64,000 nucleotides of DNA from Sphaerochaeta sp. (GCA_022482495.1 JAKVPA010000003.1:208905-272904); one strand, 5' to 3'; numbered from the stretch's first letter, positions 43,167 through 63,412 are shown. Notes: generated by a model not told the origin, from the sequence alone. Translations and numbers: made by a program.

Positions 43167-43485
43167 TACAACAATATGGGAACAAAATAAAGGTTGAAGG
43201 TATTGTTGTTCTTAACATACCTCTAGATTAGAATCCGAAGCTGAAGTCGAGAAATGTAATCATCAAAACTACGTTTACGACTTGGCTTTAAGTCTTTCCA
43301 AACGTAAACGCTATAACCCATTGATATTTCGAGAGTTATGATTTGAACATAAACGCCCCTTATTTATCTTGCCCAATGTAAACATTACTATCAGATTCAA
43401 ACCATTCCATATTTTTTAAAGCCTATTTTCCAAATTGAGAGACTTCTGAATTGAAAATTTCCTAAACAAGAAATACACTATCAAT
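43167..43485. promoter_or_regulatory. AT-rich leader/promoter region of the BREX operon with an imperfect inverted repeat
   Basis: acgtttacgacttgg ... ccaaacgtaaacgc, and gtaaaca recurs downstream. Confidence 0.3.
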
Positions 43486-43689
43486 ATGCTTTCGATTGAC
43501 GATTATTCAACAGCCAAGGAAATGGCGGAGCGTTGGGGGGTTACCGTCAGGATGGTCATCCATTATTGCGACCGGAATCTGATTCCGGATGCTGTCAAAA
43601 AAGGCAATCTCTGGCTCATCCCGACAAATACTGAAAAGCCTGAAGACAGAAGATTGAAGGCATTCAAAAAACAGAGGACTGATGAATGA
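43486..43689 (+). CDS. Small HTH_17/excisionase-type (MerR-like) DNA-binding protein, first gene of the BREX operon
   Basis: YSTAKEMAERWGVTVRMVIHYCDRNLIPDAVKKGNLWLIP. Its stop overlaps the brxA start (ATGA). Confidence 0.6.
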   Translation: MLSIDDYSTAKEMAERWGVTVRMVIHYCDRNLIPDAVKKGNLWLIPTNTEKPEDRRLKAFKKQRTDE

Positions 43690-44270
43690 ATGATAGGCTC
43701 TCATTGCCAACCATATCCGGGCTGGCAATCAATCCAGCCTCATGGCTGGCAAAACGATATCTTGAAACCAAAGACTGGGAACCATGCCGGAAGGAGGCTA
43801 TGGAAAACAATCTCATGAAGATTGAGAAAAATGCCTCCGCAGCAAGATATCTTGCATATACGATGAAGCTTCTCCGCTCTCTTGATGACAGAGAGCTTCA
43901 ATTGCTTGCTTCTCTGAATGCAGATACACAGCGTGCAATGATGTGGCTTGCTTTCTGCAGGACGTATCCGTTGATAGGGAAGTTTGCAGACACTGTAATC
44001 AATCAGAAATACATTCAACATGATTTTCATCTGTCCCCTGGAGAATGGAATGAATTTCTCTCACGGGAAAGCTGTGAGCACCAGGAAATAGAAAATATAG
44101 GAAAGGCCTCAAGGCTGAAGGCAAAATCCGTGTTGTTCGGAAATCTCAAGAGTCTTGGATATCTTTCATCGTCAAACGAGCTGAAGGAAGCCATGCTTGC
44201 AAATGAAGCAGTCGTAGCAATCGGATCTGATATTAGATTCTTTCCATGTATTGCCGGAGGTTCCAGATGA
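43686..44270 (+). CDS. brxA: BREX protein BrxA (DUF1819)
   Basis: About 190 aa, in the expected position and size for brxA of a type 1 BREX locus. It is coupled to brxB by an ATGA overlap. Confidence 0.7.
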   Translation: MNDRLSLPTISGLAINPASWLAKRYLETKDWEPCRKEAMENNLMKIEKNASAARYLAYTMKLLRSLDDRELQLLASLNADTQRAMMWLAFCRTYPLIGKFADTVINQKYIQHDFHLSPGEWNEFLSRESCEHQEIENIGKASRLKAKSVLFGNLKSLGYLSSSNELKEAMLANEAVVAIGSDIRFFPCIAGGSR

Positions 44271-44869
44271 GCAGCAAGGAAATGACCTATAACGAAAGAT
44301 ATGCCTTTCTTCTTGATCTTCTTGATGATGACAAATTCATTCGGAAGAAATATGTCGGTGCTGAGATCCCGAACTACATCTGTGCATTTCCACCAGAAGA
44401 TGTCAGCTCATACAACGACATGCTGGAAAATCTAGCAAAGGCTTTAACCAGTAAAGGACGAAAAGTTCTCAAGGTTAACGTGTATGAGATCATGATTGAA
44501 ATGCTTAAGGATTCAGGCGACTTTGAAGATTATCTGGAAGAGCCATCCCTGACACATAAGAAGATCATGGAGGATTTCGAAGGTGTGCTCGACAATGACA
44601 CGGAGTTCGCTCCGAAGGTTGCATCGATTATCAATGAAAGCGTTCCAGGTATCGTTCTCATGAACGGTATCGGAGAGGCTTATCCTTTCATCAGAATCCA
44701 TACGCTTCTTGAAAAGCTGCCGACATTACTCAAACGACTTGTCCCGATAGTCGTCTTCTATCCAGGAAATTACGACAAGGTCACAGGCAGTTCTGCCTTG
44801 CAGCTTTTCGGGAAGCTTGAACATAAGAACTACTACAGAGCATTCAACATATTCACGGAGGTTCGCTGA
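44267..44869 (+). CDS. brxB: BREX protein BrxB (DUF1788)
   Basis: About 200 aa, between brxA and brxC. It overlaps the brxC start by 1 nt (TGATG). Confidence 0.7.
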   Translation: MSSKEMTYNERYAFLLDLLDDDKFIRKKYVGAEIPNYICAFPPEDVSSYNDMLENLAKALTSKGRKVLKVNVYEIMIEMLKDSGDFEDYLEEPSLTHKKIMEDFEGVLDNDTEFAPKVASIINESVPGIVLMNGIGEAYPFIRIHTLLEKLPTLLKRLVPIVVFYPGNYDKVTGSSALQLFGKLEHKNYYRAFNIFTEVR

Positions 44870-47800
44870 TGCCACTGAAATTCGAATCCATCTTCACCAA
44901 TCAGATTGCCAGGGACATAAATGGAGTCATCAATACTGATAGCCAGTCCACTCTTGGAGAGGAGTTCAGCGAATACGTAATCACGAATGAAGTCGCAAAC
45001 TGTCTCGATGGTTTCTTTGAGAAATACAACGAGCACAATCCTATCTACAACGGTGTCTGGATCTCAGGCTTCTTCGGTTGCGGTAAATCACACCTGTTGA
45101 AGATTCTCTCATACCTCATCGCAAACAGCGATATCGATGGGAAGAAGGCTGTCTCGTATTTCGACAACAAGCTCAATGATAATCCGATGCTTCTTGGGCA
45201 GATGAGAAAAGCTGCTGGAATTCCATCCGAGAGCATCCTTTTCAACATCGTCCAGTACAACCAGAATGACAAGTCAGAGCCGATTCTCCACATCTTCCAG
45301 AGGAAGTTCTATGAGCATTGCGGTTACTTTGGAATAAATCCGAAAATCGCTGCATTCGAGATGGAACTCGACAAGGAAGGCCTCTTTGAGAAGTTCAAGG
45401 AAGTCTTCAACCAGGTTTCAGGCAAGGTCTGGGAAGAGGCGAGAAAGAAGCCCAACATCAACAACAGACATATCGCCAAAGCCTTTGCTGAGGTCACAGG
45501 AAATGCTGAAGATCAGGATCTTCTTGACAGCTATGAAGCTGAAATCAGCATTCACGACTTCGCAGTGCAGGTGAAGGAATACATGGATTCTAAAGGATCC
45601 GATTTCCGTCTCAATTTCTTTGTCGATGAAGTCGGTCAGTTTGTTGCAAGATCAAGCCGCCTCATGGTTGATCTCCAGGAGATTGCAACCAGCCTCAGTT
45701 CTGTTACTGCCAACAGGTCCTGGGTCATGGTCACAAGCCAGGATGAGCTTGAGAAGTTCGTGAAGAACCTCGACAAGCAGGACAAGACAGATATCAGCAA
45801 GATCATGGGCAGATTCTATGTGAAGATGTCACTGTCCAATGCCAACGTCAATGAAGTCATCCAGAAGAGGCTTCTTGAGAAGAATGAAGAAGGCAAGAAG
45901 ATTGTCGGATCTGCATATGAGATCCAGAAAGAGAACTTCAACACACTCTTCCAGTTCGTGAACGGGCCGAAAAAATACAGGGTATACAGGGACAAGGATG
46001 AGTTCGTCACGACATATCCATTCGTCACATACCAGTTCGACATGTTCAAGACTACACTTGAAACATTGTCATTGCACAATGCATTCCCAGGTGAGTACAC
46101 GTCAACTGGAGCGAGATCCATGCTTGACGTTTTCCACAAGGTTCTCAGGGACTTTGCGGAGAAAGAAGATTCAAATGTAGGGACATCGCTCATTCCTTAT
46201 GACGTTATGTATGACGGTCTCAAGGATCTCCTGAAAGAGAACTTCAAGAGATCGATAGATCTTGCCGAGAACAACATTGTTGATAACCCGTTTGCAATCA
46301 GAGTCCTGAAGGCACTCCTTCTTGTGAAATACCTTCAGAGGGAATTCAAGCCGACAGCGCATAATCTCAGCGTGCTCCTGCTTACAAGCTTCAATGACAA
46401 CCCTGCAGAGCTTGTCGAGAAGACAGAAGAGGCTCTGTTGAGGCTCACGAAGGAAACCTACATCCAGCGAAATGGCGACCAATATGACTTCCTGACAAAC
46501 GAGGAAAAGGATGTCGAGGAGGAGATAAAGCAGACCTATGTTCCTCCGAAAGATCTCACAGATGAGGTCAAGGCAATCATCTATGACAATATCCTTTCCG
46601 GAGTTACAAAGGCTCAAGATGAAAGAAATCTCACAAGCTATCAGTTCACAAGAAAGATAGACGGAGAGACTGTTGTCTCAAGGAATGCAGAACTGAGCAT
46701 CAACATCCTCACTCCATTCAGCGGAAGCGATTCGCATCCTGAGTACAGCGATACCCTCACATCTCCTGATACAGAGCTAGTGATGCTTTTAAAGCCAGAC
46801 AAGAGGCTTGCAGATGACCTTCTTCTCTACCTGAAGACAAAACAGTATGTGAAGAACAATGCTGGAATGACTGTTTCTGAAGACAGGGAAAAAGTTCTCA
46901 AGGCAAAAGGTGAGAGAAACACGACAAGACGTGAGGAGATTGAGAATGCAGTCAGGGATATGATGAGCGAGGCTGAGTTCTATGTCTCAGGCACAGCTCT
47001 TGATGTAACATCTTCATCTAGAATCGATGCTCGTGTTGAAAGGGCTTTCCAGATTCTCATTGAGAAAGTCTATCCGAACTTGAAGATGATCACAAAAGAG
47101 TCATCAGGAGAGATGAATGCAAGAGGCCTCATTGACAAGAATGTCGATTCCGAGCTCTTTAAGGAGTCAGCATCAGAAGCCGAGACGCAGATCCTCAATC
47201 AGCTGAGGATCGATAAGGAGAGGATCACCACAACAATCTCGTCTCTTCTTGATAAGTTCAGGAAGAAGCCATACGGCTGGCCTGAGACGGCACTGATCTA
47301 CAACCTCATCCTTCTTATGAGGAAGAGCCTCATCAACATTAAGAAGGATGGAAAGGTCGTTGATAATCCTGCAACTCTGAAAGGATTCCTGTTCTCATCT
47401 TCACAGTATGGTCAGACTGTAATCGAGCTCTGCCAGGATATTGATCCAAAGAGAATCAAGGAGCTCAAGAACTTCATTTTTGACTTCACAAACCTGAAGT
47501 GTTCGTATGACGATGCAAAGAACACTGCCAGAATGGCCGCAGATGCAATAAAGAAGACCTATGATGATGTGAGAGACAAAGCCTACTCGCTCAGATACCC
47601 GTTCACTGAGAGCATAAAGGACAAGCTGAAGCTCCTTCAGAATGTTGTAGGACAGGATTATCTCTGGTTCTTCTCTGATGAATTTGAAGACATAAGCGAT
47701 GAGATTCTCGAGGCAAAAGAGGATTATTTTGATAAATTCCTCATATTTACCAGCAGAAAAGAGAACATCGAAAAGTATGAGGATGCTGAACGCCTCATCA

Positions 47801-48342
47801 AACGCAATGAGAGCATAAAGGATCAGCTTGATACTGAATCCTGGAATAAGATTATCGCCATACTGAACGACAAAAACCTATACAGCAATTCATCACTCAG
47901 TGAACTTGATAAACATGTCAGTGCACTCAAGCTCAGCATCTCCCAGCTTGTGACAAAGGCAAAGAATGATGCCCTTGATGATTTCGAGAAATACGCAGAG
48001 TCTGTCCAGAAGGAGACAGCCTATCGTCTGCTCGGAGAAGACCAGAAGGAACATATCAACAGCCTGGTATCAACGGCAAAGACAAAGATAGCAGCAATCT
48101 CTTCGATTGATGAGCTCAACAATACAAACACATTCACCATCAAGGATACGAAGCGTCAGATCAGTGCACTCCTTGAAGAAGGTAAGGAGAAAGCCCAGGA
48201 GAAGAAGATTATCAGGCTTTCAGCAATCCAGGCGTCTCACGTCACTGCTCCTATCAAGACGGCAGATGATGTAACTGCATTCATTGAGAAGCTCAAGAAG
48301 GAAATGATGGACAGAATCAACGAAGGATATACGGTGGAATAA
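44869..48342 (+). CDS. brxC: BREX ATPase BrxC/PglY
   Basis: 1157 aa with an N-terminal P-loop GFFGCGKSHLLKIL and a long alpha-helical C-terminal region. Confidence 0.85.
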   Translation: MPLKFESIFTNQIARDINGVINTDSQSTLGEEFSEYVITNEVANCLDGFFEKYNEHNPIYNGVWISGFFGCGKSHLLKILSYLIANSDIDGKKAVSYFDNKLNDNPMLLGQMRKAAGIPSESILFNIVQYNQNDKSEPILHIFQRKFYEHCGYFGINPKIAAFEMELDKEGLFEKFKEVFNQVSGKVWEEARKKPNINNRHIAKAFAEVTGNAEDQDLLDSYEAEISIHDFAVQVKEYMDSKGSDFRLNFFVDEVGQFVARSSRLMVDLQEIATSLSSVTANRSWVMVTSQDELEKFVKNLDKQDKTDISKIMGRFYVKMSLSNANVNEVIQKRLLEKNEEGKKIVGSAYEIQKENFNTLFQFVNGPKKYRVYRDKDEFVTTYPFVTYQFDMFKTTLETLSLHNAFPGEYTSTGARSMLDVFHKVLRDFAEKEDSNVGTSLIPYDVMYDGLKDLLKENFKRSIDLAENNIVDNPFAIRVLKALLLVKYLQREFKPTAHNLSVLLLTSFNDNPAELVEKTEEALLRLTKETYIQRNGDQYDFLTNEEKDVEEEIKQTYVPPKDLTDEVKAIIYDNILSGVTKAQDERNLTSYQFTRKIDGETVVSRNAELSINILTPFSGSDSHPEYSDTLTSPDTELVMLLKPDKRLADDLLLYLKTKQYVKNNAGMTVSEDREKVLKAKGERNTTRREEIENAVRDMMSEAEFYVSGTALDVTSSSRIDARVERAFQILIEKVYPNLKMITKESSGEMNARGLIDKNVDSELFKESASEAETQILNQLRIDKERITTTISSLLDKFRKKPYGWPETALIYNLILLMRKSLINIKKDGKVVDNPATLKGFLFSSSQYGQTVIELCQDIDPKRIKELKNFIFDFTNLKCSYDDAKNTARMAADAIKKTYDDVRDKAYSLRYPFTESIKDKLKLLQNVVGQDYLWFFSDEFEDISDEILEAKEDYFDKFLIFTSRKENIEKYEDAERLIKRNESIKDQLDTESWNKIIAILNDKNLYSNSSLSELDKHVSALKLSISQLVTKAKNDALDDFEKYAESVQKETAYRLLGEDQKEHINSLVSTAKTKIAAISSIDELNNTNTFTIKDTKRQISALLEEGKEKAQEKKIIRLSAIQASHVTAPIKTADDVTAFIEKLKKEMMDRINEGYTVE

Positions 48343-48343
48343 T

Positions 48344-51300
48344 ATGAAAGGAAGCGCACTTGAACGATTTGCACAGGAAGCAAGAATACAGCTACAGAAA
48401 GAAGTAAGAGCCAGACTCAATCTGATTCAGAAAGGTGATGCCTCAATCGACCTCATCGAGAACAGGAATGCAGTGAATGCACTTAACAAGCATCTTGAGG
48501 AACTCAAAGGTGATGAAGAAGCTCTTGTTGAGGAAGTCGCATACACATGGTTCAACAGAATCTCTGCTCTCCGATTCATGGATGCATCCGGTTACAATGC
48601 CACGCTGATAGTCTCCCCGTCAGAAGGAAAGACACTACCTGAAATTCTTTCTGAGGCACTTTCTGGAATCATTGATGAAGATGTTGTCACAAGCATAAAA
48701 GATAGGGAAAGAATCCGTGGTCTTGTTGACGGCTCAATTACATCAAAGAATCCACAGGCCGAAATCTACCGTATCCTTCTTGTCGCTTCATGCAATCATC
48801 TCAACAACAGCCTTCCTCTTCTCTTTGAGAAGATTGAGGACTATACAGACCTCCTTCTTCCAGATGATCTTCTCTCATCAGAGTCCATAATCACAAAGAC
48901 GGTGAATGCCATCAGCGAGGAAGACACCGCATCCGTCGAGATCATCGGCTGGCTCTATCAGTACTACATTTCAGAAAAGAAGGATGAGGCCTTCGCTTCA
49001 TTCAAGAAAGGAAAGAAGGCTGGCAAGGATGAAATTCCGGCTGCAACCCAGCTCTTCACTCCAGAGTGGATTGTCCGATATCTTGTTGAGAATTCTCTTG
49101 GACGACTATGGATGCTCAATCATCCTGAATCAAATCTCAAGAGTAGGATGAAGTATTTTATAGAACCAACCGACAAGGAAACGGACTTCATCAGACTCTC
49201 AAGTCCAGAAGAGATCAAAGTACTCGATCCATGCTGCGGATCCGGACATATGCTCACATATGCATTCGATCTTCTTTTTGACATCTACGCCGAGTGTGGA
49301 TACACGGACAATGATGCTGTAAAGCACATCATCGAAGACAACCTCTATGGCATTGAAATTGATAAACGTGCTGGGCAGCTTGCTTACTTTGCCCTCATGA
49401 TGAAAGCCCGTGAGAGAAGCAGAAGAATACTGAGAAAAGGAATTGAACCCAACATTTGCATTCTCCAGAAAGTCGAATTTGACAAAGAAGAGCTTCCAAA
49501 CGTCATAAACCTCTTTGAAAATCCATCTCTGACAATCATGGATCTGATGAACGATTTCAAAGATGCAGACATCCTCGGATCTCTCATCACTCCATCGATA
49601 TCGAACATAGCTGCACTGAAAGCAACACTCAGGAAAGATCTGGAATCCGGAGACATGCTTTCAGATGAATACACCCTCGCAAAAAGGGTAAAGGCAGTAT
49701 TGGATCAGGCTGAGTATCTGGCAGGGAAATACAGCATTGTAATCACAAACCCACCGTACCTTGCCCCTTCTTCATCAGATCCGATACTTCAGAACTTCGC
49801 TAAAGGCCAGTACCCAAACAGCAAAACAGATACCGGTACGATGTTCATTGAACGCAACTTCAAATTCATCCCTAAGAATGGCTATGTTGCAATGATTACC
49901 TTGCATAGCTGGATGTTCCTTTCAAGTTTTGAAAAACTGAGAGATGAAGTCATTAACAACAGATCAATCCTTTCTATGATTCATATTGGAGCAAGGGGCT
50001 TTGATACAATCGGTGGCGAGGTAGTTTCCACAACTGCGTATGTCCTCTCTGGGGAGAATGGGACCACAGGGGTTAAGGGGCAGTATGTCCGTCTTGTTGA
50101 TGGCCAATCTGAAGCGGAAAAATCCAATTCACTATCCGTTGCAATCTCAAATCATGATTGTGGATATTACTTTGAAGTATCAGCAGATCAGTTTGAGAAG
50201 ATTCCAGGAAGTCCGATTGCTTACTGGGCATCTCCGCGTGTAAGAGAAATCTATTCTTCATCTGTATCAGCTGGAACAATTGCCGAATTCAAACATGGAA
50301 TGAGTACTGGTAAAAATGAAGCAGTTGTCAGGTTCTGGCCTGAGGTCATATTCTCTGACATCGCATTCAATTCTACCTCACATGAAAGTTTCTATTTTTC
50401 TGGAAAAAAATTTGTTCCATATAATAAAGGAGGAGAATATAGGAAATGGTATGGTAATCAAGAGTATATCCTAGGATATGATAAAAAATACGATGCTCTG
50501 ATGGATTCTTTCTCAGGTCATAGGCATGACAATAAAGATACATATTTCAAAGAAAATATTTCTTGGTCCAAGATTTCCAGTGGAGATTTGGCAATGAGAT
50601 TTTTTCCACATGGTTTTGTCTATGATGTTGCAGGCTGTTCCGCATTTACTACTCATGTATATATCAAATATCTACTTGCTTTCTTTAATCTAAAGGTTAA
50701 AGATTTACTTGTTTCTGCATTATCTCCGACATTAAACTTTGAGGTTGGGCAACTAAGGAATGCTCCAATTATCATAAAAGAATCATCGATTGAAAATGTT
50801 TCAAAACAAGTAGATAAGAGTATTTCAATCTCTAAAGCTGACTGGGACTCCTTCGAAACCTCTTGGGATTTCTCCATTCATCCTTTGCTTGATAAGAACA
50901 TCATTGAGACTGATGGCTTCGCATTTGATGATGATCTGGAGCTTCAGGAATATCTTGGAGATGATGAGTATACCAAGATTTTCAAGAATGGAATTGATGG
51001 TTCAAGGACTGCATGGAGCCCCATTGAGTTTGCATATCTCCGTTATAAGGACTGGGCTAACAAGGCATTCTTTCACCTAAAGAAGAATGAGGAAGAGCTG
51101 AACAGAATCTTCATCGATATCTATGGTCTTCAGGATGAGCTTACTCCGGAAGAAGATGATTCGATGGTGTCAGTGCATAGGATCTTTGATTCAAAGGCAG
51201 AGATTCCAGAGTCAATGAAGAAAGGACAGTATGCACTTACCAAGGAAGATGTCATCAAGTCATTCATCTCCTATGTGGTCGGCTGCATGTTTGGACGCTA

Positions 51301-51901
51301 TGATGCTTCACGCCTAGGGCTTGCATTTGCAGGTGGTGATTTTGATATCTCCTCATACTCTGAATTTGTTCCAGATGCAGATAACGTCATTCCTGTTCTT
51401 GGAGACTCCTGGTTCAAGAACGATGCTGAGACTTATTTCATCAAGTTTGTTGAGAAAGTATTCGGACATGACAGTCTCAATGAAAATCTCAAGTTCATTG
51501 AGAATGCTCTTGGGAAATCAATCAGGGAATACTTCTATAAGGACTTCTACAAGGATCATCTGAAGACTTATCAGAAGAGGCCGATCTACTGGATGTTCTC
51601 ATCTCCAAAGGGATATTTCCAGGCATTGGTATACATGCACCGTTATAATGAGAATACAGCAAATATCGTGCTGGATTACCTGAGAAAGTTCAGAGAAAAG
51701 ATTCAGTTCCAGATAAAACTGGCAGACGAGGCGGGTGAGACCAAGAAGAAGGTCGAATATGAGAATATAGACAAGGATCTCAATGATTATGAGGTGAATA
51801 TCCTTTTTCCTCTTGCAATCAAGCATCTTACATTCGATCTTGATGATGGAGTGAAGGTGAATTATCAGAAGCTCGGGAATGCTCTGAAACCAATCAAGTG
51901 A
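48344..51901 (+). CDS. pglX: BREX adenine-specific DNA methyltransferase PglX
   Basis: 1185 aa. SAM-binding region VLDPCCGSGHML and catalytic motif ITNPPY (YSIVITNPPYLAP). Confidence 0.85.
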   Translation: MKGSALERFAQEARIQLQKEVRARLNLIQKGDASIDLIENRNAVNALNKHLEELKGDEEALVEEVAYTWFNRISALRFMDASGYNATLIVSPSEGKTLPEILSEALSGIIDEDVVTSIKDRERIRGLVDGSITSKNPQAEIYRILLVASCNHLNNSLPLLFEKIEDYTDLLLPDDLLSSESIITKTVNAISEEDTASVEIIGWLYQYYISEKKDEAFASFKKGKKAGKDEIPAATQLFTPEWIVRYLVENSLGRLWMLNHPESNLKSRMKYFIEPTDKETDFIRLSSPEEIKVLDPCCGSGHMLTYAFDLLFDIYAECGYTDNDAVKHIIEDNLYGIEIDKRAGQLAYFALMMKARERSRRILRKGIEPNICILQKVEFDKEELPNVINLFENPSLTIMDLMNDFKDADILGSLITPSISNIAALKATLRKDLESGDMLSDEYTLAKRVKAVLDQAEYLAGKYSIVITNPPYLAPSSSDPILQNFAKGQYPNSKTDTGTMFIERNFKFIPKNGYVAMITLHSWMFLSSFEKLRDEVINNRSILSMIHIGARGFDTIGGEVVSTTAYVLSGENGTTGVKGQYVRLVDGQSEAEKSNSLSVAISNHDCGYYFEVSADQFEKIPGSPIAYWASPRVREIYSSSVSAGTIAEFKHGMSTGKNEAVVRFWPEVIFSDIAFNSTSHESFYFSGKKFVPYNKGGEYRKWYGNQEYILGYDKKYDALMDSFSGHRHDNKDTYFKENISWSKISSGDLAMRFFPHGFVYDVAGCSAFTTHVYIKYLLAFFNLKVKDLLVSALSPTLNFEVGQLRNAPIIIKESSIENVSKQVDKSISISKADWDSFETSWDFSIHPLLDKNIIETDGFAFDDDLELQEYLGDDEYTKIFKNGIDGSRTAWSPIEFAYLRYKDWANKAFFHLKKNEEELNRIFIDIYGLQDELTPEEDDSMVSVHRIFDSKAEIPESMKKGQYALTKEDVIKSFISYVVGCMFGRYDASRLGLAFAGGDFDISSYSEFVPDADNVIPVLGDSWFKNDAETYFIKFVEKVFGHDSLNENLKFIENALGKSIREYFYKDFYKDHLKTYQKRPIYWMFSSPKGYFQALVYMHRYNENTANIVLDYLRKFREKIQFQIKLADEAGETKKKVEYENIDKDLNDYEVNILFPLAIKHLTFDLDDGVKVNYQKLGNALKPIK

Positions 51902-51902
51902 G

Positions 51903-53432
51903 GTGAGGATGGAAGATTTCGAATTGCAGAACATAGAATACAAAGTCATCTGGAAGAAGGAGTTTCTTGATGAGATTTGTGGAATGGCCAACGCTTCCGG
52001 TGGGAAGATATATATCGGCAAAGATGACGATGGCAACACTGTGGATCTTGGAGTCAATGAGACCAGAAGATTGCTTGAAACAATTCCTAACAGCATAGTC
52101 CAGGCTCTGAACTACTCTAATGTCTCTGTTGATGCAAAAAGAGATGACAATGGCCTCTATATCGAGATTATAGTTCACAAATCAGACTCTCCTGTCTTCT
52201 ATCAGGGAAGCATGTACAAGCGTATCGGGACTGCCAATTTCAAAGTGGAAGGAACTCAGCAGCAGAATGCTTTGATTGAAGTCAGGAACAGGACATGGGA
52301 TTCATCTGTTGTAGACAATGTCTCGATTGATGACCTCGATGAAGAGAGTTTCCAGATCTTCAGGGAAGAGGCTGTTGCATCTGGCCGCATAAGCGGCAAA
52401 GCCCTTGAAAGCAGAGAGAAGATTCTTGAAGAGCTTGAGCTTATCAAAGATGGAAAGCTTACCGTTGCTGCTGTTCTCCTGTTCCATAGAAAACCATCAA
52501 AAGTGGTACCAGGCGCATCCATACTTATTGGCAAGATGAGAAATGATGCGGATGTAGTGAGCAGTGATGAGATAAAAGGATCTCTGATGATGCTCAGCAG
52601 AAGCATCCTTGATATCCTGAAGGTGAAATATCTTTATGCACTCATATCCTACGACATGCCTACAAGGATTGAGACATATCCATACCCGTTTGATGCACTT
52701 AGAGAAGCAGTTTTCAACTCTTTAATGCATAACGACTGGTCATCTGGCCAGTCCATTCTGATTAAGGTTTATGATCATTCGCTCAGCATACTCAACAGGG
52801 CTATTGTTGATGAGGACTGGACTGTAGAACACCATAAATCTAGGCATATCAATCCGCTCATATCAAATGCATTCAATAAAGCCGGACTTGTTGAAAAATT
52901 CGGAACAGGAATCACCAAGATGATTGATTCATGCAAGGACGCTGGAAATCCTGAACCATTGTTTGAGACAGCTTCCACTGGCCTTGATTTCTGCGTGACA
53001 TTCCAGGCTTCCAAACTATACAAGGCAATCGAAAAATATAGGGCATTGAATAGCGACTCTGTTGTTGACTACCGAAAGGTACTTGCCCAGATGGATAAAC
53101 TGACAGAGGAAAGTCCTGTTGGCAGTATAAATGATACTGATGGCAGTTTAAATGGCAGAATAAATGAAGCTGATGGCAGATTAACCAGATTCTTGGCAAA
53201 TAAGAAAACTGCAGAGACTTCAGAAGAAGATTCTGTATATTTCAGGAAGGTACGGATTCTTTCGGAACTGAAAGGAAAACCTCAAAGCACAATTGAACAA
53301 TTGGTATCAGTATTGGCTATTCCAGAAAGAACAATCTACAGGGATATTGAGTGGTTGAGAGAAAACGGCTATCTGGAACGTCTTGGCTCAAAGAAATCTG
53401 GTTCATGGCATGTAATCAAGGAGCTTGAATAA
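51903..53432 (+). CDS. COG2865-like protein (AlbA_2/Schlafen-like N-domain, HATPase_c_4-like middle domain, C-terminal winged HTH), embedded between pglX and pglZ
   Basis: N-terminus KVIWKKEFLDEICGMANASGGKIYIGKDDDGNTVDLGV (AlbA_2 signature). C-terminus QLVSVLAIPERTIYRDIEWLRENGYLERLG (wHTH). It starts 2 nt after the pglX stop and overlaps the pglZ start by 8 nt. Confidence 0.7.
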   Translation: MRMEDFELQNIEYKVIWKKEFLDEICGMANASGGKIYIGKDDDGNTVDLGVNETRRLLETIPNSIVQALNYSNVSVDAKRDDNGLYIEIIVHKSDSPVFYQGSMYKRIGTANFKVEGTQQQNALIEVRNRTWDSSVVDNVSIDDLDEESFQIFREEAVASGRISGKALESREKILEELELIKDGKLTVAAVLLFHRKPSKVVPGASILIGKMRNDADVVSSDEIKGSLMMLSRSILDILKVKYLYALISYDMPTRIETYPYPFDALREAVFNSLMHNDWSSGQSILIKVYDHSLSILNRAIVDEDWTVEHHKSRHINPLISNAFNKAGLVEKFGTGITKMIDSCKDAGNPEPLFETASTGLDFCVTFQASKLYKAIEKYRALNSDSVVDYRKVLAQMDKLTEESPVGSINDTDGSLNGRINEADGRLTRFLANKKTAETSEEDSVYFRKVRILSELKGKPQSTIEQLVSVLAIPERTIYRDIEWLRENGYLERLGSKKSGSWHVIKELE

Positions 53433-55938
53433 GATGAATGATACCTTGTTAAGCAATCTCGCAAAGCAATTTGAATCACATAGGGTCGTTTTCTGGTATG
53501 ATCCATCTTCAGAGTTCTCAGATCAGCTTGATCTGATGCCGGATGATGTTACGCTCATCAGAGCTTCGGAATACAATGACTTTGCAATCAAGTACAGACT
53601 CCTGACAGAAGAGCCAGAGAAGAAGTTCTTGGTCTACTATGAGAAGGATGAGCCTGAGTATGAGGACAACTGGCTTCTCGATATCCAGCTTGCAAACACG
53701 GTGTTCAGAACGGACAAGGAATCCATTATCCTCTCAGATCTGGATTTGCCGCATGCTTTCATAGGAACTCTAAGAAAGCATCTTCCGTTCTTCGACAACA
53801 AGAAACTTGTGAAGAAGCTTGATTCATTGGTAAGCCCGGATATGAGTGAGGATGCCTTTGAACATCTGCTTCTTGCGATTACAGCTGGAGAAGACTCCTT
53901 CAATCTCCAGATGATCATCGATTCCCTTGTTGCTGACTATGCTGATGACGGAGATCTTTATGAGACGGTAAAGGAATACGGGCTTGATTCACTCTTATGG
54001 AATGATATTGCTACTCTCTACGGCTATTCGAAGGAAAATCCGGGTATAGAAGATTTCTATCTTTCGGTATACGAGACATCACTTCAGCACTTTCTTGGTT
54101 CTGCAACAGCACTCCAGGCGGATGCATATGGTCTACTGAAACACTGGAAGGATTCGGCAAAATTCAAAGATTCCGGACTATATAAAACACTCTCAGATAA
54201 AGCAGCTGAGGAACTTTCTGCGCCTAAGCATCTGGCTGATATCTCCATCGAGTCTCTCTCTGCCTTTGATGATTATGCCTTCGTCGAAGAAGAGATCATC
54301 GCAAGGCTTACAGCAAGTGCACTGAATCAGACAATGGGATTAGAAGCAATCAGGCAGATTGCAGAGAGAAGGAGAAGTTCATTCTGGTACTCAGAGTACA
54401 GCTCAGCTTATCAGAGCATAGTGCTGGCAAAGACGATGCTGGATGCTGTGAAGAACATCTCATTCACAATGGACAGCCCTGATGCCGGAATCAGCAAGTA
54501 TGTTAAAGAATGGTCTCATATAGACAATGCATACAGAAACTTCAAGATCCAAGTCCATGGATGCCTGAACATCAATTCAGACATGGAGGCACTTTCAGAT
54601 AAAGTCGAAGCATCTTATGTGACCAATTTCCTCATTCCTCTTGGAGAGAAGTGGACACCGTTTGCAAAGGAAATGCTTGAGAAAGGCTGGCGGACAGAGG
54701 GAGGAATCCAGCGACAAGGAATCTTCTATCACTATAACATCAAGAATCTACAGTTAAGGGGAAACAAGGCTGTTGTCCTCATTTCTGATGCAATGCGTTA
54801 TGAAATTGGCGAAGAGCTTGTAAGCGAAATAAATTCCCAGCAAAGATACAAGGCAGCAATCCAGCCTCTGCTTGCATCAGCGCCGACATACACTCAGCTT
54901 GGCATGGCATCTCTGCTTCCGCATGAGACGCTTATGATCTCTCCCGATGGAAGCGCAGTCTATGCGGATGGTGTAAGCACACAGGGGATTGTGAATAGGG
55001 AAAAGATCCTGAAGAATGCATCAGATGGTAAGGCCGTGGCATTGGATTCAGATGATGTCCTCAAGATGAAGAGCGATGATCTCAGGACTGTCATCAAGGA
55101 CAACTCTGTAATCTATGTCTACCATGACCTCATTGACCGTGAGGGAGAGGACAATCTTTTCAAGGCATCTCATGAGGCAATTGATGAGCTTAAAAACATC
55201 ATCAGAAAACTTGGATCTTCCAATGCGAATACAATCTATGTCACAGCAGATCACGGCTTCCTGTTCCAGGAGAGTGACCTTGAGTCTCATCAGTACATCT
55301 CTGACGGATCTGTCAGAGGAAAGGATGTCCATCAGGTCAGTGGAAGACGTTGTGCAATAGGCTACGACCTTGTGCCCTCTGATTCCCTTATGATTGCAAA
55401 GCTGAAGGATATAGGACTCTCTAACGAGGATGACCTCGAAGTTGCATTCCCCAATTCAATTCTCAGGATGAGAGTGCAGGGAGCGAACACGAACTTCGTA
55501 CATGGAGGACTCTCTCTTCAGGAGATCATCATCCCTCTCATCAAAGTCGATAAGGCCCGCAAGGACGACATAACAGATGTCTCAATCGAGATACTCACGA
55601 ATCTGAAGACAATCACCACAGGAAGTGTCGCTGTGACGTTCTTCCAGGAGGATTATGTCTCAGACAAGGTTCAGGGCTATGAAGCCACATTCGGCTTCTA
55701 TTCTCAGGACGGTACTGCAATCTCTGATATCGAGAAGAGGACAATTGCAAGTGAGGCGATAGATCCGAAGAAGAGGGAATTCCAGATTGTGTTCTACCTG
55801 AACAAGGAATCTGAGAAATACAACAGACGGCCAGTGTTCCTGAGAATACAGAAGATCCTTCCATCCGGCAGGACTCTGATGATTGCTGAAAAGGAATGCA
55901 TTCTCTCACGCTCGATTAGTTCGGATTTTGATTTCTAG
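53425..55938 (+). CDS. pglZ: BREX alkaline-phosphatase-superfamily protein PglZ
   Basis: 837 aa with the PglZ signature IYVTADHGF. Confidence 0.85.
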   Translation: MNKMNDTLLSNLAKQFESHRVVFWYDPSSEFSDQLDLMPDDVTLIRASEYNDFAIKYRLLTEEPEKKFLVYYEKDEPEYEDNWLLDIQLANTVFRTDKESIILSDLDLPHAFIGTLRKHLPFFDNKKLVKKLDSLVSPDMSEDAFEHLLLAITAGEDSFNLQMIIDSLVADYADDGDLYETVKEYGLDSLLWNDIATLYGYSKENPGIEDFYLSVYETSLQHFLGSATALQADAYGLLKHWKDSAKFKDSGLYKTLSDKAAEELSAPKHLADISIESLSAFDDYAFVEEEIIARLTASALNQTMGLEAIRQIAERRRSSFWYSEYSSAYQSIVLAKTMLDAVKNISFTMDSPDAGISKYVKEWSHIDNAYRNFKIQVHGCLNINSDMEALSDKVEASYVTNFLIPLGEKWTPFAKEMLEKGWRTEGGIQRQGIFYHYNIKNLQLRGNKAVVLISDAMRYEIGEELVSEINSQQRYKAAIQPLLASAPTYTQLGMASLLPHETLMISPDGSAVYADGVSTQGIVNREKILKNASDGKAVALDSDDVLKMKSDDLRTVIKDNSVIYVYHDLIDREGEDNLFKASHEAIDELKNIIRKLGSSNANTIYVTADHGFLFQESDLESHQYISDGSVRGKDVHQVSGRRCAIGYDLVPSDSLMIAKLKDIGLSNEDDLEVAFPNSILRMRVQGANTNFVHGGLSLQEIIIPLIKVDKARKDDITDVSIEILTNLKTITTGSVAVTFFQEDYVSDKVQGYEATFGFYSQDGTAISDIEKRTIASEAIDPKKREFQIVFYLNKESEKYNRRPVFLRIQKILPSGRTLMIAEKECILSRSISSDFDF

Positions 55939-55948
55939 GAGGTAACAG

Positions 55949-58033
55949 GTGAAAGAGTTTGATCAGAAGATACATGATGCCTTTCCTGGTCTTGTAGTGA
56001 GAAAAGACCTGGTGAAGGAAGTGAAGGGAAATGCGATTGTCCCTTCCTACGTGCTTGAATACCTCCTCGGGCAGTACTGTGCTACAGATGATCAGGAAAC
56101 AGTCAAAGCCGGGATTGAGAGTGTCAAATCAATCCTCGCAGCACACTATGTGCATCGAAATGAGGCAAACAAGATCAGAGCTGAGATAAGCGAGCGTGGA
56201 CAGAAGAAAGTCATCGACATGATCTCTGTCACATTCAATGAGAAGAAGGACACATACGAAGCGTCTTTCTCCAACCTTGGAATCTCTAAGGTGCTTGTTG
56301 ATTCCGACACCATCAAGAAACATCAGAAATTGCTTGTGAATGGTGTATGGTGTATTGCTACCGTGAGCTATCAGCTGGATGAGGAATCAAAGGACTCTTC
56401 TCCCTGGCATATTGAGAATCTGAAGCCAATACAGCTCTCAAACTTCGACTTCGACATGTTCCTTGCTGGCAGAAAACAATTCACTTCCGAGGAGTGGATC
56501 GATGTTCTTATGCAGTCAATTGGATTCAATCCAGAGATGTTTTCAAAGCGCCTCAAACTTCTGCACCTACTCCGCCTTGTGCCATTTGTAGAGAGAAACT
56601 ACAACCTCATAGAGCTCGGCCCGAAAGGAACTGGAAAGAGCCACATCTATTCTGAGATGTCTCCATATGGAATGCTGCTTTCCGGTGGAGAAGTCACTGT
56701 TGCAAAGCTCTTTGTGAACAACAACCGCAATCAGCTTGGACTTGTCGGATTCTGGGATGTCGTTGCATTCGATGAATTCGCAGGACAGGCGAAGAAGGTT
56801 GATAAAGCCTTAGTTGATATCATGAAGAACTACATGGCCAACAAATCTTTCTCTCGTGGTATCGAAACGATGCACGCTGAAGCTTCAATGGTCTTTGTCG
56901 GCAATACAAAGCATACAGTACCATATATGCTGAAGAACTCGGATCTCTTTGAAGAGCTTCCAAGTGCATACCATGATTCAGCTTTCATCGACCGTATCCA
57001 TGCTTTCGTTCCTGGATGGGAGTTTGACAGCATTCGCTTTGACATGTTCTCGGATGGTTATGGATTCATAGTTGATTACCTTGCGGAGATGCTCCGCTAT
57101 ATGCGTAACCGTGATTACTCGAACATTTATCAGGACTACTTTACGCTCTCTTCTGATATCACGACAAGAGATAAGGATGGCATTAACAAGACATTCTCCG
57201 GACTGATGAAGCTTATCTATCCTAACGGCGAAGCTACAAAGGAAGAGGCAAAAGAGATTCTGGAATTTGCAATTGAACAGAGAAAGAGAGTCAAGGATCA
57301 GCTTGTTCGCATAGATGCGACATTCTATGACACTGAGTTCAGTTACCTTGACAATTCTTCAAAAGAGAAGATTCAGATTCTTGCCCGGGAGGAGAAGGAG
57401 TTCCCGGAGCTTTACAAGAAGCAGGCAAGCGAGGCAAGCCCTGAAGAAAAGAGAAAGCCAGAGAAACAACAAGCTGAGGATACACAAACCATTCCGGACT
57501 CTCTTAAATCCAATGCCAAGATACTGGGGCCTTTGTTTCCTTCTCCAAAAGCAGGCAACTTCCGCTACGAAGAAGATCAGAGCGGAGTATCCTACGAGAA
57601 GCTCTTTGGAGAATATCTTGAAGGAGCTACTCGGATTGAGATTCAGGATCCATACATCATCAAGCCTTATCAGACAAGAAATCTGATGGAGTTCCTGGAA
57701 GTCGTATATCATCACAAGAAACCGGAAGATGAAGTGACTGTTTCTCTTCTTACAAAAGCTGACAGGGATTACTTTGAAGATCAGGATATGAGACTGTCGA
57801 GAATTAAAGACAGCGCAGCTCTCATCGGCATTGATTTCGAATACTCCTATGATGGCACTGATACGATTCATGATAGAAACATCATTTTGAATAATGGTTG
57901 GAAGATCATTCTCGGAAGAGGACTCGATATCTTCCAAGTATTCGACACAGATATGCTTTCATTTGCGTCTAAGGTACAGGAAATCAGGAAATGCAAGGCA
58001 TTTGAAATTACGTATATTTTGCAGGGCATGTAA
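55949..58033 (+). CDS. brxL: BREX Lon-like protease/ATPase BrxL
   Basis: 694 aa. AAA+ motif LGPKGTGKSHIYSEMSP and a Lon-like C-terminal domain. Confidence 0.85.
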   Translation: MKEFDQKIHDAFPGLVVRKDLVKEVKGNAIVPSYVLEYLLGQYCATDDQETVKAGIESVKSILAAHYVHRNEANKIRAEISERGQKKVIDMISVTFNEKKDTYEASFSNLGISKVLVDSDTIKKHQKLLVNGVWCIATVSYQLDEESKDSSPWHIENLKPIQLSNFDFDMFLAGRKQFTSEEWIDVLMQSIGFNPEMFSKRLKLLHLLRLVPFVERNYNLIELGPKGTGKSHIYSEMSPYGMLLSGGEVTVAKLFVNNNRNQLGLVGFWDVVAFDEFAGQAKKVDKALVDIMKNYMANKSFSRGIETMHAEASMVFVGNTKHTVPYMLKNSDLFEELPSAYHDSAFIDRIHAFVPGWEFDSIRFDMFSDGYGFIVDYLAEMLRYMRNRDYSNIYQDYFTLSSDITTRDKDGINKTFSGLMKLIYPNGEATKEEAKEILEFAIEQRKRVKDQLVRIDATFYDTEFSYLDNSSKEKIQILAREEKEFPELYKKQASEASPEEKRKPEKQQAEDTQTIPDSLKSNAKILGPLFPSPKAGNFRYEEDQSGVSYEKLFGEYLEGATRIEIQDPYIIKPYQTRNLMEFLEVVYHHKKPEDEVTVSLLTKADRDYFEDQDMRLSRIKDSAALIGIDFEYSYDGTDTIHDRNIILNNGWKIILGRGLDIFQVFDTDMLSFASKVQEIRKCKAFEITYILQGM

Positions 58034-58054
58034 ATGCTCTGCAAGAAAACATAG

Positions 58055-61426: not shown

Positions 61427-61708
61427 TTAAATCAACCTTGCAAATAGCAATATTACAGTGAGATGCAGTGGATAGTAAGCATAGAAAACTAATCCGGGAA
61501 TCCTACCTTTTCCTTGTTCTTCCGCTTGGATTCTCAGTGCATAGATAACCGCAGAAGCCAGAAATACGGATATTGTCCCTGCAATATATTCCACTTGAGT
61601 TTCACCGTAGAGGATAGTTCTGAGAATGAAATATGAAGCAGGTATCAGAATTAGCTTTAGTTCCCTGTGAGAAATTCTACTTACAATCTGCCTTTTTCGG
61701 GATTTCAT
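61427..61708 (-). pseudogene. C-terminal fragment of a TraX-family membrane-protein gene, displaced by the IS insertion
   Basis: Hydrophobic C-terminus ...VFYAYYPLHLTVILLFARLI. The N-terminal part of the same family lies at 63413..63900. Confidence 0.4.
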
Positions 61709-63243: not shown

Positions 63244-63412
63244 GGCGATCCTCCTGTAATTACATATTTAATATTCTAATTACATGATATGCTATATCCT
63301 TCCGGAGTGCAAGGGAAAAGGAGGGGGAAAGGGCAAATACCGACGAAAAAACCAACTCTGGCGGTTGTGTGCAAAGTTGGTCGTCTCTGTTTTGGTTGGT
63401 AGTTAGAATTTC

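What the first reader, a model, noticed from the sequence alone, without database searches (positions are those of the whole stretch)
43486..58033. Complete type 1 BREX operon written as a single translationally coupled nine-gene unit
The expected family signatures are all visible. brxC has a P-loop, pglX has NPPY and a SAM motif, pglZ has VTADHGF, and brxL has a Lon-like AAA+ domain. Every junction is an overlap or a gap of 10 nt or less: ATGA at HTH/brxA and brxA/brxB, TGATG at brxB/brxC, 1 nt at brxC/pglX, 1 nt at pglX/51903, an 8-nt overlap at 53425, and 10 nt at pglZ/brxL. This suggests a strictly co-translated defence module in which the two extra genes are integral parts, not passengers.
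Basis: partly seen in the sequence, partly recalled or inferred. Interest (0 to 1): 0.6.

Follow-up and report, generated by a model that had tools for sequence, protein, structure and literature searches.

The report
Type 1 BREX operon with embedded Schlafen gene
This is a complete, intact anti-phage BREX type 1 operon of eight (not nine) tightly packed genes in a gut spirochaete-like genome; it carries a small regulator gene at its head and a Schlafen-type nuclease gene in a slot already known to collect extra defence genes, so it is a good example of a known kind and not a new system.

Summary
Window 43486-58033 (+) encodes HTH, BrxA, BrxB, BrxC, PglX, a Schlafen/AlbA_2-HATPase_c_4-wHTH protein, PglZ and BrxL. 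That is eight genes, not nine. Every junction is 10 nt or less.

The interpretation that both extra genes are integral is only partly supported. The Schlafen gene belongs to a published class (pSlfn, HisKinase-HTH type). It sits in the pglX-pglZ slot, a known cargo hotspot: 33 of 71 diverse BREX-1 loci carry inserts there, of many unrelated defence families. Most of its homologues lie outside BREX. Relatives persist as HTH-Schlafen remnants after BREX loss. It is therefore embedded modular cargo, probably co-transcribed.

The 67-aa HTH is a MerR/Xis-like winged helix. It heads BREX operons of this lineage, behind a conserved promoter that has an inverted repeat in its spacer and a probably leaderless start. 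A 57% homologue heads an R-M-like operon. It looks like a controller-type regulator, is restricted to this lineage and is dispensable, since one relative keeps the promoter but lacks the gene.

BrxL is the known HKD/PLD-tailed variant. The PglX specificity domain is swapped relative to near-identical relatives. Overall this is a new member of a known kind, of low to moderate interest.

The parts
43451..43479 (+). Promoter-like site: -35 TTGAAA, 17-nt spacer, -10 TACACT. The spacer holds an inverted repeat, ATTTC-N8-GAAAT (43457-43474), the probable operator. The -10 ends 6 nt before the HTH ATG and there is no Shine-Dalgarno sequence, so the mRNA is probably leaderless.
   Evidence: Scan hit. 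The half-sites and both hexamers are conserved while the 8-nt spacer varies across 10 BREX-linked loci with different upstream neighbours. The extended pattern is found in 21 of 203 held loci, always at this position. The repeat occurs once in the window, against 0.16 expected. Function is inferred.
43486..43689 (+). 67-aa MerR/excisionase-like winged-helix protein, the putative controller-type regulator of the operon.
   Evidence: Pfam HTH_17, HTH_59 and MerR hits are all below their cut-offs. The AlphaFold model (pLDDT 80.6) has a beta-alpha-alpha-beta-hairpin fold. The best PDB folds are Xis 4j2n and MerR-family N-domains, at 1.7-1.9 A over about 42 residues, with non-significant E-values. 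It lies directly upstream of brxA in 16 of 16 places shown.
43686..44270 (+). brxA
   Evidence: PADLOC BrxA 1.8e-35; Pfam BrxA 103 bits against a cut-off of 23.
44267..44869 (+). brxB. The preferred start at 44267 gives an ATGA overlap; an alternative ATG lies at 44246.
   Evidence: PADLOC BrxB 2.3e-44; Pfam BrxB 105 bits. GGAGG lies upstream of 44267. The gene is called as 200 aa on L001 and L002.
44869..48342 (+). brxC (P-loop ATPase)
   Evidence: NCBIfam BREX_BrxC 913 bits against a cut-off of 400. Walker A GFFGCGKS and Walker B FFVDE are present.
48344..51901 (+). pglX (N6-adenine methyltransferase and specificity subunit). The block 50231-50830 (aa about 630-829, the target recognition domain) has no homology to otherwise near-identical relatives.
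   Evidence: NCBIfam BREX_1_MTaseX 1248 bits against 500. NPPY at aa 469. Mosaic identity against L001 and L006. The TRD is placed by Salmonella PglX residues 662-849 (PMC11341690).
51909..53432 (+). Embedded prokaryotic Schlafen gene (pSlfn, HisKinase-HTH class): an N-terminal SLFN/AlbA_2 nuclease domain with E5-x4-E10-x-K12, a GHKL-like HATPase_c_4 domain and a C-terminal winged HTH.
   Evidence: Pfam SLFN_AlbA_2 40.3 bits against 25.3, and HATPase_c_4 47.9 against 26. E5, E10 and K12 are invariant in 33 homologues. The family profile hits SLFN11, SLFN14, SLFN8 and SLFN12 at the active-site region and MarR-type wHTH proteins at the C-terminus. The class is described in 10.1101/2025.07.24.666596 and its BREX linkage in PMC12839542.
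53434..55938 (+). pglZ (type A). The preferred start is ATG 53434.
   Evidence: TIGR02687 613 bits against 270. VTADHGF at aa 603.
55949..58033 (+). brxL, the HKD/PLD-tailed variant: BrxL_N, an AAA+ ATPase, and a MIT_C PLD-like domain in place of the Lon-protease-like domain.
   Evidence: Pfam BrxL_N, BrxL_ATPase and MIT_C. Residues 2-481 match solved BrxL 8emc (8.8e-154), and residues 538-664 match the MITD1 PLD-like domain. H641-D-R643 fits the HxR form described for BrxL-HKD variants (PMC12839542).

Best explanation
The region is an intact type 1 BREX anti-phage operon, horizontally acquired, lying in a variable defence hotspot downstream of tRNA-Phe in a gut Spirochaetaceae-like genome. 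It consists of the six canonical genes (brxA, brxB, brxC, pglX, pglZ, brxL) plus two accessories.

1. A 67-aa MerR/Xis-like winged-helix gene sits at the head. It is probably transcribed as a leaderless mRNA from a sigma-70-type promoter. The promoter's spacer carries a conserved inverted repeat. I infer that the protein binds this repeat and autoregulates the whole operon, as the controller (C) proteins of restriction-modification systems do.

2. A prokaryotic Schlafen gene (nuclease, GHKL-like ATPase, wHTH) occupies the pglX-pglZ slot. I infer that it is a self-contained second-line effector, probably an RNase acting through abortive infection, that is co-transcribed with BREX. It is not a subunit of the BREX machinery.

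From established BREX-1 work, PglX together with BrxB, BrxC and PglZ would methylate a 6-bp non-palindromic motif on host DNA, and the full set would block replication of unmethylated phage DNA. The swapped PglX recognition domain implies a motif different from that of near-identical relatives. BrxL here carries a PLD/HKD-like domain that may add nuclease activity.

Shown: gene identities, motifs, packing, the conserved promoter and repeat, and the comparative distribution. Inferred: single transcript, translational coupling, autoregulation, RNase activity and the trigger of the Schlafen protein.
For: - Family assignments reach curated cut-offs and are nearly end to end. Motifs are present.
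- Junctions are 10 nt or less, and each has a Shine-Dalgarno sequence except the HTH.
- Internal promoter-like and terminator-like matches do not exceed chance.
- GC is 0.41-0.46 in the locus against about 0.57 in the host.
- The same chromosomal frame, from tRNA-Phe to the TraX-side flank, holds different contents in L006, L008 and L010.
- The Schlafen class and its BREX linkage are published. The catalytic E-x4-E-x-K is invariant.
- Slot statistics: inserts occur in 33/71 loci at pglX-pglZ, 6/69 at pglZ-brxL, 0/21 at brxB-brxC and 0/17 at brxA-brxB. The cargo is heterogeneous.
- Schlafen homologues are mostly outside BREX.
- HTH: BREX linkage; conserved promoter and operator; fold; a homologue heading an R-M-like operon.
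- The BrxL variant is confirmed.
Against: - There are no expression, methylation or phage-challenge data for this locus.
- Promoter assignment uses an E. coli-type consensus in an uncultured spirochaete.
- The HTH's Pfam hits are below their gathering thresholds and its fold matches have non-significant E-values, because the domain is tiny.
- The HisKinase-HTH Schlafen class has not, to my knowledge, been shown experimentally to defend. The preprint showed defence only for two other architectures.
- The Schlafen clade at 65% identity or more is found only in BREX or in BREX remnants. A lineage-specific functional tie to BREX is therefore not excluded.
Confidence: 0.8

Rival explanations
1. The Schlafen protein is a true functional partner of this BREX lineage. 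For example, it could act as a guard that senses inhibition of PglX or the BREX complex, as PARIS senses Ocr. Its tight translational coupling would then set stoichiometry, which is the reader's 'integral' reading.
For: - It lies inside the operon, co-oriented, with a 7-nt and a 1-nt junction.
- Homologues at 65-100% identity are always next to pglX or a pglX remnant.
- A 44% homologue occupies the same slot in a divergent BREX (L010).
- The 2026 survey counts this architecture next to BREX or BREX-related loci in at least 1017 taxa.
Against: - The same slot holds many unrelated defence genes in other BREX-1 loci, and about half of loci have nothing there.
- 74 of the 80 best genomic homologues have no BREX nearby.
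- The gene persists after BREX loss.
- In Salmonella, the PARIS genes embedded in this slot were not needed for BREX methylation (PMC11341690).
Confidence: 0.15
2. The locus is two or more transcription units, as in Bacillus cereus BREX (brxA-pglX, then pglZ-brxL). An internal promoter in the 3' end of pglX would drive the Schlafen gene, pglZ and brxL. In that case the tight spacing does not mean obligatory co-translation.
For: - B. cereus BREX is reported to consist of two operons split at pglX|pglZ (cited in PMC9122589).
- The split point coincides with the cargo hotspot.
- The BREX-less derivatives keep 50-100 nt of the pglX tail upstream of the Schlafen gene.
Against: - No promoter-like match lies in 51780-51908.
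- Acinetobacter BREX is a single mRNA starting upstream of its regulator gene (PMC9122589).
- In L007 and L009 the HTH promoter is joined directly to the Schlafen gene, which suggests that this promoter is what drives it.
Confidence: 0.2
3. The AlbA_2-HATPase_c_4-wHTH protein is a DNA-binding transcription regulator of BREX and not a nuclease effector. Many databases label this family as a putative DNA-binding or transcriptional regulator, or as RecG-like.
For: - It has a C-terminal winged HTH resembling MarR- and DeoR-type regulators.
- Source annotations read 'putative DNA binding domain-containing protein'.
Against: - The Schlafen catalytic E-x4-E-x-K motif is invariant across 33 homologues down to 28% identity, and the family profile hits the active-site region of SLFN11, SLFN14, SLFN8 and SLFN12.
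- The operon already has a dedicated HTH at its head.
- Published analyses treat the family as an RNase effector.
Confidence: 0.08
4. The locus is an inactive relic of a defence island.
For: - Relatives show deletion derivatives and a fragmented Schlafen gene (L102).
- IS elements flank the locus.
Against: - All eight ORFs are full length against their profiles.
- Five independent metagenome contigs carry the 3' half at 98.8-99.96% nucleotide identity, with identical Schlafen, PglZ and BrxL proteins.
Confidence: 0.04

Closest known systems
Type 1 BREX (Goldfarb et al. 2015; E. coli HS, Acinetobacter NEB394 and Salmonella D23580 systems)
   Same: It has the same six genes in the same order, with full-length profile matches, the NPPY methyltransferase motif, the PglZ TADHG motif and P-loops in BrxC and BrxL. 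BrxL residues 2-481 match the solved Acinetobacter BrxL.
   Different: The head regulator is a 67-aa MerR/Xis-like winged helix, not the WYL protein BrxR. BrxL ends in a PLD/HKD-like domain in place of the Lon-like domain, a variant reported in 1030 of 2913 BREX-1 taxa (PMC12839542). An extra gene lies between pglX and pglZ.
Salmonella BREX with PARIS (ariA, ariB) embedded between pglX and pglZ, and pEFER BREX with BrxU (GmrSD)
   Same: A second, self-contained defence module sits in or next to the BREX operon at the pglX-pglZ junction (PMC11341690). My sample of 71 loci shows the same hotspot.
   Different: The cargo here is a single-gene Schlafen nuclease, not an ABC ATPase/TOPRIM pair or a type IV restriction enzyme.
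Prokaryotic Schlafens, HisKinase-HTH class (Taboada et al. 2025 preprint), and the 'Schlafen RNase + minimal histidine kinase + wHTH' auxiliary effectors of BREX (PMC12839542)
   Same: The domain order is identical and the E-x4-(E/D)-x-K motif is conserved. The architecture is reported close to BREX or BREX-related loci in at least 1017 taxa.
   Different: Nothing architectural differs. This particular class has no published phage-defence assay that I found.
Controller (C) proteins of restriction-modification systems
   Same: It is a small DNA-binding protein encoded first in the operon. An inverted repeat lies within its own promoter, and the start is probably leaderless. That C-protein transcripts are leaderless (C.PvuII) rests on my own knowledge. 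A 57% homologue heads a methyltransferase operon.
   Different: The fold is MerR/excisionase-like. Classical C proteins are, to my knowledge, of the XRE type, so it is an analogue and not a family member. Regulation is untested.
BrxR (WYL-domain BREX regulator)
   Same: Its position immediately upstream of brxA and its presumed role as a repressor of the BREX promoter (PMC9122589).
   Different: It has no WYL or WCX domains, is about a quarter of the size, and has an unrelated DNA-binding fold.

Membership tests
Type 1 BREX | All six genes (brxA, brxB, brxC, pglX, pglZ, brxL) present, co-oriented and in canonical order | tested here: met
   PADLOC, Pfam and NCBIfam hits for each gene, in that order, on the + strand.
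Type 1 BREX | PglX is a BREX-1-type gamma-class N6-adenine methyltransferase (NPPY motif; BREX_1_MTaseX equivalog) | tested here: met
   NF033452 1248 bits against a cut-off of 500. NPPY at aa 469.
Type 1 BREX | PglZ of type A with the alkaline-phosphatase-fold catalytic motif | tested here: met
   TIGR02687 613 bits against 270. VTADHGF at aa 603.
Type 1 BREX | BrxL with a Lon-protease-like C-terminal domain | tested here: not met
   The C-terminus is MIT_C/PLD-like. This is a described BrxL-HKD variant within type 1 (PMC12839542), so it does not exclude membership.
Type 1 BREX | PglX-dependent m6A at a 6-bp non-palindromic motif, and phage exclusion without DNA degradation | not testable with these tools
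   Needs methylome sequencing and phage assays.
Prokaryotic Schlafen (pSlfn), HisKinase-HTH class | SLFN/AlbA_2 nuclease domain with the E-x4-(E/D)-x-K catalytic motif | tested here: met
   PF04326 40.3 bits against 25.3. ELQNIEYK at aa 5-12, invariant in 33 homologues. The family profile hits SLFN11 at 4.2e-05.
Prokaryotic Schlafen (pSlfn), HisKinase-HTH class | Fused GHKL/histidine-kinase-like ATPase domain followed by an HTH | tested here: met
   PF13749 47.9 bits against 26. The C-terminus matches MarR-type wHTH in PDB profile hits. HTH_11, HTH_24 and HTH_DeoR are recorded on homologues.
Prokaryotic Schlafen (pSlfn), HisKinase-HTH class | RNase (tRNA-cleaving) activity and phage defence | not testable with these tools
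   Inferred from the family only.
BrxR (WYL regulator) | wHTH, WYL and WCX domains, about 290 aa | tested here: not met
   The protein is 67 aa with no WYL or WCX hit. BrxR chains score only prob 0.25-0.30 in the fold search.
R-M controller (C) proteins | Small HTH encoded first in the operon, with an operator repeat in its own promoter | tested here: met
   Position. Conserved inverted repeat in the promoter spacer. Binding itself was not tested.
R-M controller (C) proteins | XRE-type five-helix HTH fold | tested here: not met
   The model is a beta-alpha-alpha-beta-hairpin winged helix closest to Xis and MerR N-domains. That C proteins have an XRE-type fold rests on my own knowledge, not on a tool result.
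Translationally coupled operon | Stop and start codons overlap or lie within a few nt, with the SD inside the upstream gene | tested here: met
   Gaps of -4, -4, -1, +1, +7, +1 and +10 nt, with SD-like sequences upstream of all starts except the HTH.
Translationally coupled operon | Downstream translation depends on upstream translation; single mRNA | not testable with these tools
   Needs RNA-seq, ribosome profiling or reporter fusions.

The most novel reading that the evidence does not exclude
The 67-aa MerR/Xis-like protein and its leaderless, operator-bearing promoter form a portable controller cassette. This cassette would be exchanged among otherwise divergent BREX operons and R-M operons of gut bacteria, making it a BREX regulator class distinct from BrxR. 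After BREX loss it would be re-used to drive the Schlafen gene alone. In addition, the embedded Schlafen may guard BREX against anti-BREX proteins. The probability given is for the controller-cassette part, not for the guard idea.
Probability: 0.35. Interest if true: 0.45.

Novelty: new member of a known kind. Interest (0 to 1): 0.28.

Why it matters
The locus adds a well-preserved, fully annotated example of a composite BREX island from an uncultured gut spirochaete. The island combines BREX-1, an embedded Schlafen gene, an HKD-type BrxL and an adjacent Gabija system. It also gives a clean natural series for experiments:
- Near-identical loci that differ only in the PglX recognition domain.
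- Loci with and without the head regulator.
- Deletion derivatives that keep only the regulator and the Schlafen gene.

The one element that the BREX papers I read do not describe is the small MerR/Xis-like head gene with its conserved operator and probable leaderless start. If confirmed, it would be a second type of BREX regulator besides BrxR. The main claim, a tightly packed BREX-1 operon with an extra gene, is already covered by the literature.

Tried and rejected
- I looked for a ninth gene. No further ORF fits between or beside the eight without overlapping them, so 'nine' is a miscount.
- I looked for direct repeats of the tRNA-Phe 3' end to define island att sites. None were found, only short chance-level repeats, so the island limits rest on synteny with L006 and L010.
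- I scanned for internal promoters and terminators. Counts were at chance and none lay at a junction.
- I considered that the pglX tail upstream of the Schlafen gene in BREX-less relatives might belong to a mobile Schlafen cassette and not to pglX. I rejected this because PglX aligns to family profiles up to its last residues, and because L007 also keeps the first 50 nt of brxA. These loci are deletion derivatives.
- I considered BrxR identity for the HTH and rejected it, as there is no WYL domain.
- The fold search for the HTH gave consistent Xis/MerR top hits but no significant E-values. I use it only as support for the sub-threshold Pfam hits.
- NCBIfam gave no hit for the HTH, BrxA, BrxB or the Schlafen protein.

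Full report
**Observation**

ORF listing and junction reading show eight co-oriented genes between 43486 and 58033. The table gives their preferred coordinates.

| Gene | Coordinates | Note |
|---|---|---|
| HTH | 43486-43689 | 67 aa |
| brxA | 43686-44270 | |
| brxB | 44267-44869 | |
| brxC | 44869-48342 | |
| pglX | 48344-51901 | |
| Extra gene (Schlafen) | 51909-53432 | |
| pglZ | 53434-55938 | |
| brxL | 55949-58033 | |

- The gaps between successive genes are -4, -4, -1, +1, +7, +1 and +10 nt.
- The mechanical ORF list offers longer versions of three genes: brxB from 44246, the extra gene from GTG 51903, and pglZ from TTG 53425.
- For each of those three, the Shine-Dalgarno position, the profile alignments and the gene calls on independent contigs of the same locus favour the starts in the table.
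Its own list has seven junctions.

PADLOC, Pfam and NCBIfam all identify the six BREX-1 families with near end-to-end alignments above curated cut-offs.
- BrxC: GFFGCGKS and FFVDE.
- PglX: NPPY.
- PglZ: VTADHGF.
- BrxL: GPKGTGKS.

Promoter-like and terminator-like matches inside the locus are no more frequent than in shuffled sequence.

**Context**

- The locus has 41-46% G+C in a window that is otherwise about 57%.
- The closest genomic relatives are uncultured gut Spirochaetaceae and Spirochaetales MAGs.
- tRNA-Phe lies at 37205-37277.
- In relative L010, a BREX operon starts about 170 nt after the same tRNA.
- In L006 and L010, the sequence to the right of brxL rejoins the window at about 61461-61654 and again at 63428.
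- The interval from tRNA-Phe to about 61460 is therefore a variable defence hotspot.
- Window 61655-63428 is an IS insertion that is missing in those relatives.
- A Gabija pair lies convergent to brxL: GajB at 58055-59584 and GajA at 59572-61323, both on the minus strand.
- An IS1595-like transposase gene lies just upstream, at 42006-43004 on the minus strand.

**The gene between pglX and pglZ**

Domain content:
- It has a SLFN/AlbA_2 domain and a HATPase_c_4 domain, both above Pfam cut-offs.
- Its C-terminus is a winged HTH.
- In an alignment of 33 homologues down to 28% identity, E5, E10 and K12 are invariant. This is the Schlafen catalytic E-x4-E-x-K motif.
- The family profile hits the active-site region of human SLFN11, SLFN14 and SLFN12 and of Schlafen 8.

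Published status:
- This is the "HisKinase-HTH" class, which makes up 19.2% of 5,930 prokaryotic Schlafens in Taboada et al. (10.1101/2025.07.24.666596).
- The association is therefore already published.

**Is the Schlafen gene integral or cargo?**

I collected 80 diverse BREX-1 loci from metagenomes, with PglZ 33-36% identical to the window's, and measured how often each junction carries an insert of more than 400 nt.

| Junction | Loci with insert >400 nt |
|---|---|
| brxA-brxB | 0 of 17 |
| brxB-brxC | 0 of 21 |
| brxC-pglX | 4 of 15 |
| pglX-pglZ | 33 of 71 |
| pglZ-brxL | 6 of 69 |

The cargo ORFs in the pglX-pglZ slot are almost all co-oriented and abut pglZ. They belong to unrelated families. 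Counts are cargo ORFs matching each Pfam family, of 60 scanned, and one ORF can match more than one family.

| Cargo family | Matching ORFs |
|---|---|
| ABC-type ATPases (AAA_21/AAA_15; PtuA, AriA and HEC-01-like) | 11 |
| GmrSD | 7 |
| DUF1016/YhcG | 5 |
| PDDEXK_3 | 4 |
| SduA | 3 |
| Schlafen + HATPase_c_4 | 2 |
| Others | remainder |

- This matches Went et al. 2024: about 7000 of about 9000 genomes have genes between pglX and pglZ, with BrxU and PARIS among the commonest known systems there (PMC11341690).
- Conversely, only L006 and L010 among the 80 best genomic homologues of the Schlafen gene lie in a full BREX.
- L007, L008 and L009 keep BREX stubs, and 74 have no BREX gene within 10 kb.
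- Look-ups of further homologues gave mixed contexts: one in BREX (67% identical), one beside a HerA/DUF4007 system (54%), and one in an unrelated island (43%).

**BREX-less derivatives**

- In L007, window 43442-43736 (promoter, HTH and the first 50 nt of brxA) is joined directly to 51816 onward (the last 86 nt of pglX plus the Schlafen gene).
- L009 has the same layout at 73-75% nucleotide identity.
- L102 also has this layout, but there the Schlafen gene is fragmented.
- L008 has tRNA-Phe, a pglX remnant, the Schlafen gene and the first 90 nt of pglZ.
- The Schlafen gene can therefore outlive BREX and be driven by the HTH promoter.
- This argues for an autonomous module. I cannot exclude a lineage-specific functional tie, since homologues at 65% identity or more are always next to pglX sequence.

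**The head gene**

Fold:
- The 67-aa protein has only sub-threshold Pfam hits: HTH_17, HTH_59 and MerR.
- An AlphaFold model built on 18 homologues (pLDDT 80.6) is a beta-alpha-alpha-beta-hairpin winged helix.
- Its best PDB matches are the excisionase Xis 4j2n and MerR-family N-domains, at 1.7-1.9 A over about 42 residues. The E-values are not significant for so small a domain.

Linkage to BREX:
- Two 78%-identical homologues sit directly upstream of brxA with a 4-nt overlap in all 16 places shown, although the upstream neighbours differ.
- The HTH stays about 78% identical while the adjacent BrxA is only 27-52% identical.
- A 57% homologue heads a methyltransferase (R-M-like) operon.
- None of the 80 diverse BREX-1 loci has this HTH.

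Promoter and operator:
- Upstream of the gene, homology between loci begins at the -35 box.
- TTGAAA, the inverted repeat ATTTC-N8-GAAAT and TA.ACT are conserved, while the repeat's spacer varies.
- The extended pattern occurs in 21 of 203 held loci, always at this position.
- The repeat is unique in the window, against 0.16 expected.
- The -10 box ends 6 nt before the ATG and there is no Shine-Dalgarno sequence, so a leaderless mRNA is likely.
- L010 keeps this promoter in front of brxA but lacks the gene.

I infer a controller-type autoregulator that is analogous to R-M C proteins and to BrxR in role but unrelated to both in fold. The 2026 BREX survey does not mention such a gene.

**Other features**

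- BrxL residues 2-481 match solved BrxL 8emc. The C-terminal 150 residues are a PLD/HKD-like MIT_C domain containing H641-D-R643.
- That BrxL variant is reported in 1030 of 2913 BREX-1 taxa.
- Against L001, a contig carrying a nearly identical locus, the window is 91.7% identical over 43137-50230, has no homology over 50231-50830, and is 99.6% identical over 50831-60436.
- L006 shows the same break.
- The break corresponds to PglX residues about 630-829, the target recognition domain as placed by the Salmonella structure. Relatives therefore differ in motif specificity.
- L010's BrxL is 94% identical to the window's, while its other BREX proteins are 26-51% identical.
- Recombination shuffles modules within these operons.

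**Verdict**

The locus is a complete BREX-1 operon of a known composite type. The Schlafen gene is embedded cargo in a known hotspot, and this very association is already published. The small head regulator with its conserved operator is the only element I did not find described. Its role is inferred, not shown.

Noticed in passing
window 50231-50830 (PglX aa about 630-829): This block has no homology to otherwise near-identical loci (L001, L002, L005, L006). Flanking identity is 91.7% on the left and 99.6% on the right, and the block coincides with a local G+C dip to 0.38. It corresponds to the PglX target recognition domain, so relatives probably recognise different motifs.
   Followed up: partly
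window 58055-61323 (-): A complete Gabija system lies convergent to brxL, only 21 nt from its stop codon: GajB at 58055-59584 and GajA at 59572-61323. It is present in L001 and L003 but absent at this position in L006 and L010.
   Followed up: partly
window 61655-63428: An IS element is inserted relative to L006 and L010. Its DDE_Tnp_1 transposase ORF is 61677-62522 (-), overlapped by an ORF with no family hit at 62323-63243 (-). The flanks at 61461-61654 and from 63428 onward are contiguous in those relatives.
   Followed up: partly
window 37205-37277 to about 61460; L008, L010: tRNA-Phe marks a variable defence hotspot. In L010 a BREX operon starts about 170 nt after the tRNA. In L008 a pglX remnant and the Schlafen gene follow it. 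In the window, about 6 kb of other genes intervene: an AAA_14/DUF4143 ATPase, peptidase S58, a Band 7 protein and an IS1595-like transposase. No att-like direct repeat was found.
   Followed up: partly
L007:1304-3116, L009:156-2219, L102:7966-9907: These are recurrent BREX-less derivatives in which the HTH promoter and gene are joined to the last 50-100 nt of pglX plus the Schlafen gene. In L102 the Schlafen gene is broken into three ORFs. The junction positions differ somewhat between loci, so the deletions may be independent.
   Followed up: partly
L010:1666-1757: The conserved promoter and operator lie directly in front of brxA with no HTH gene. The BREX of this locus otherwise resembles the L086-L093 type, which does have the HTH.
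   Followed up: partly
L010:14129-16207: [quoted passage not shown] This points to module exchange by recombination at the 3' end of the operon.
   Followed up: no
L086-L101 compared with the window: The HTH protein stays about 78% identical while the BrxA encoded 4 nt downstream drops to 27-52% identity. Either selection on the regulator is very strong or the promoter-HTH cassette moves between divergent BREX operons.
   Followed up: no
L112-L117: A 57%-identical homologue of the HTH heads an operon encoding an EcoRI_methylase-family protein and a C5 DNA methylase, followed by unannotated genes. The layout resembles that of an R-M controller protein.
   Followed up: no
L198:1-7656: A 54%-identical Schlafen homologue follows an 1810-aa HerA/TrwB-like ATPase, a DUF4007 protein and a 1443-aa protein with no Pfam hit. 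This may be one of the BREX-related composite systems described in PMC12839542.
   Followed up: no
window 37832-38854 (+); L102:10113-11414; L200:11193-12545: AAA_14/DUF4143 ATPase genes recur near the Schlafen gene or its remnants in three unrelated contexts. Their function is unknown.
   Followed up: no
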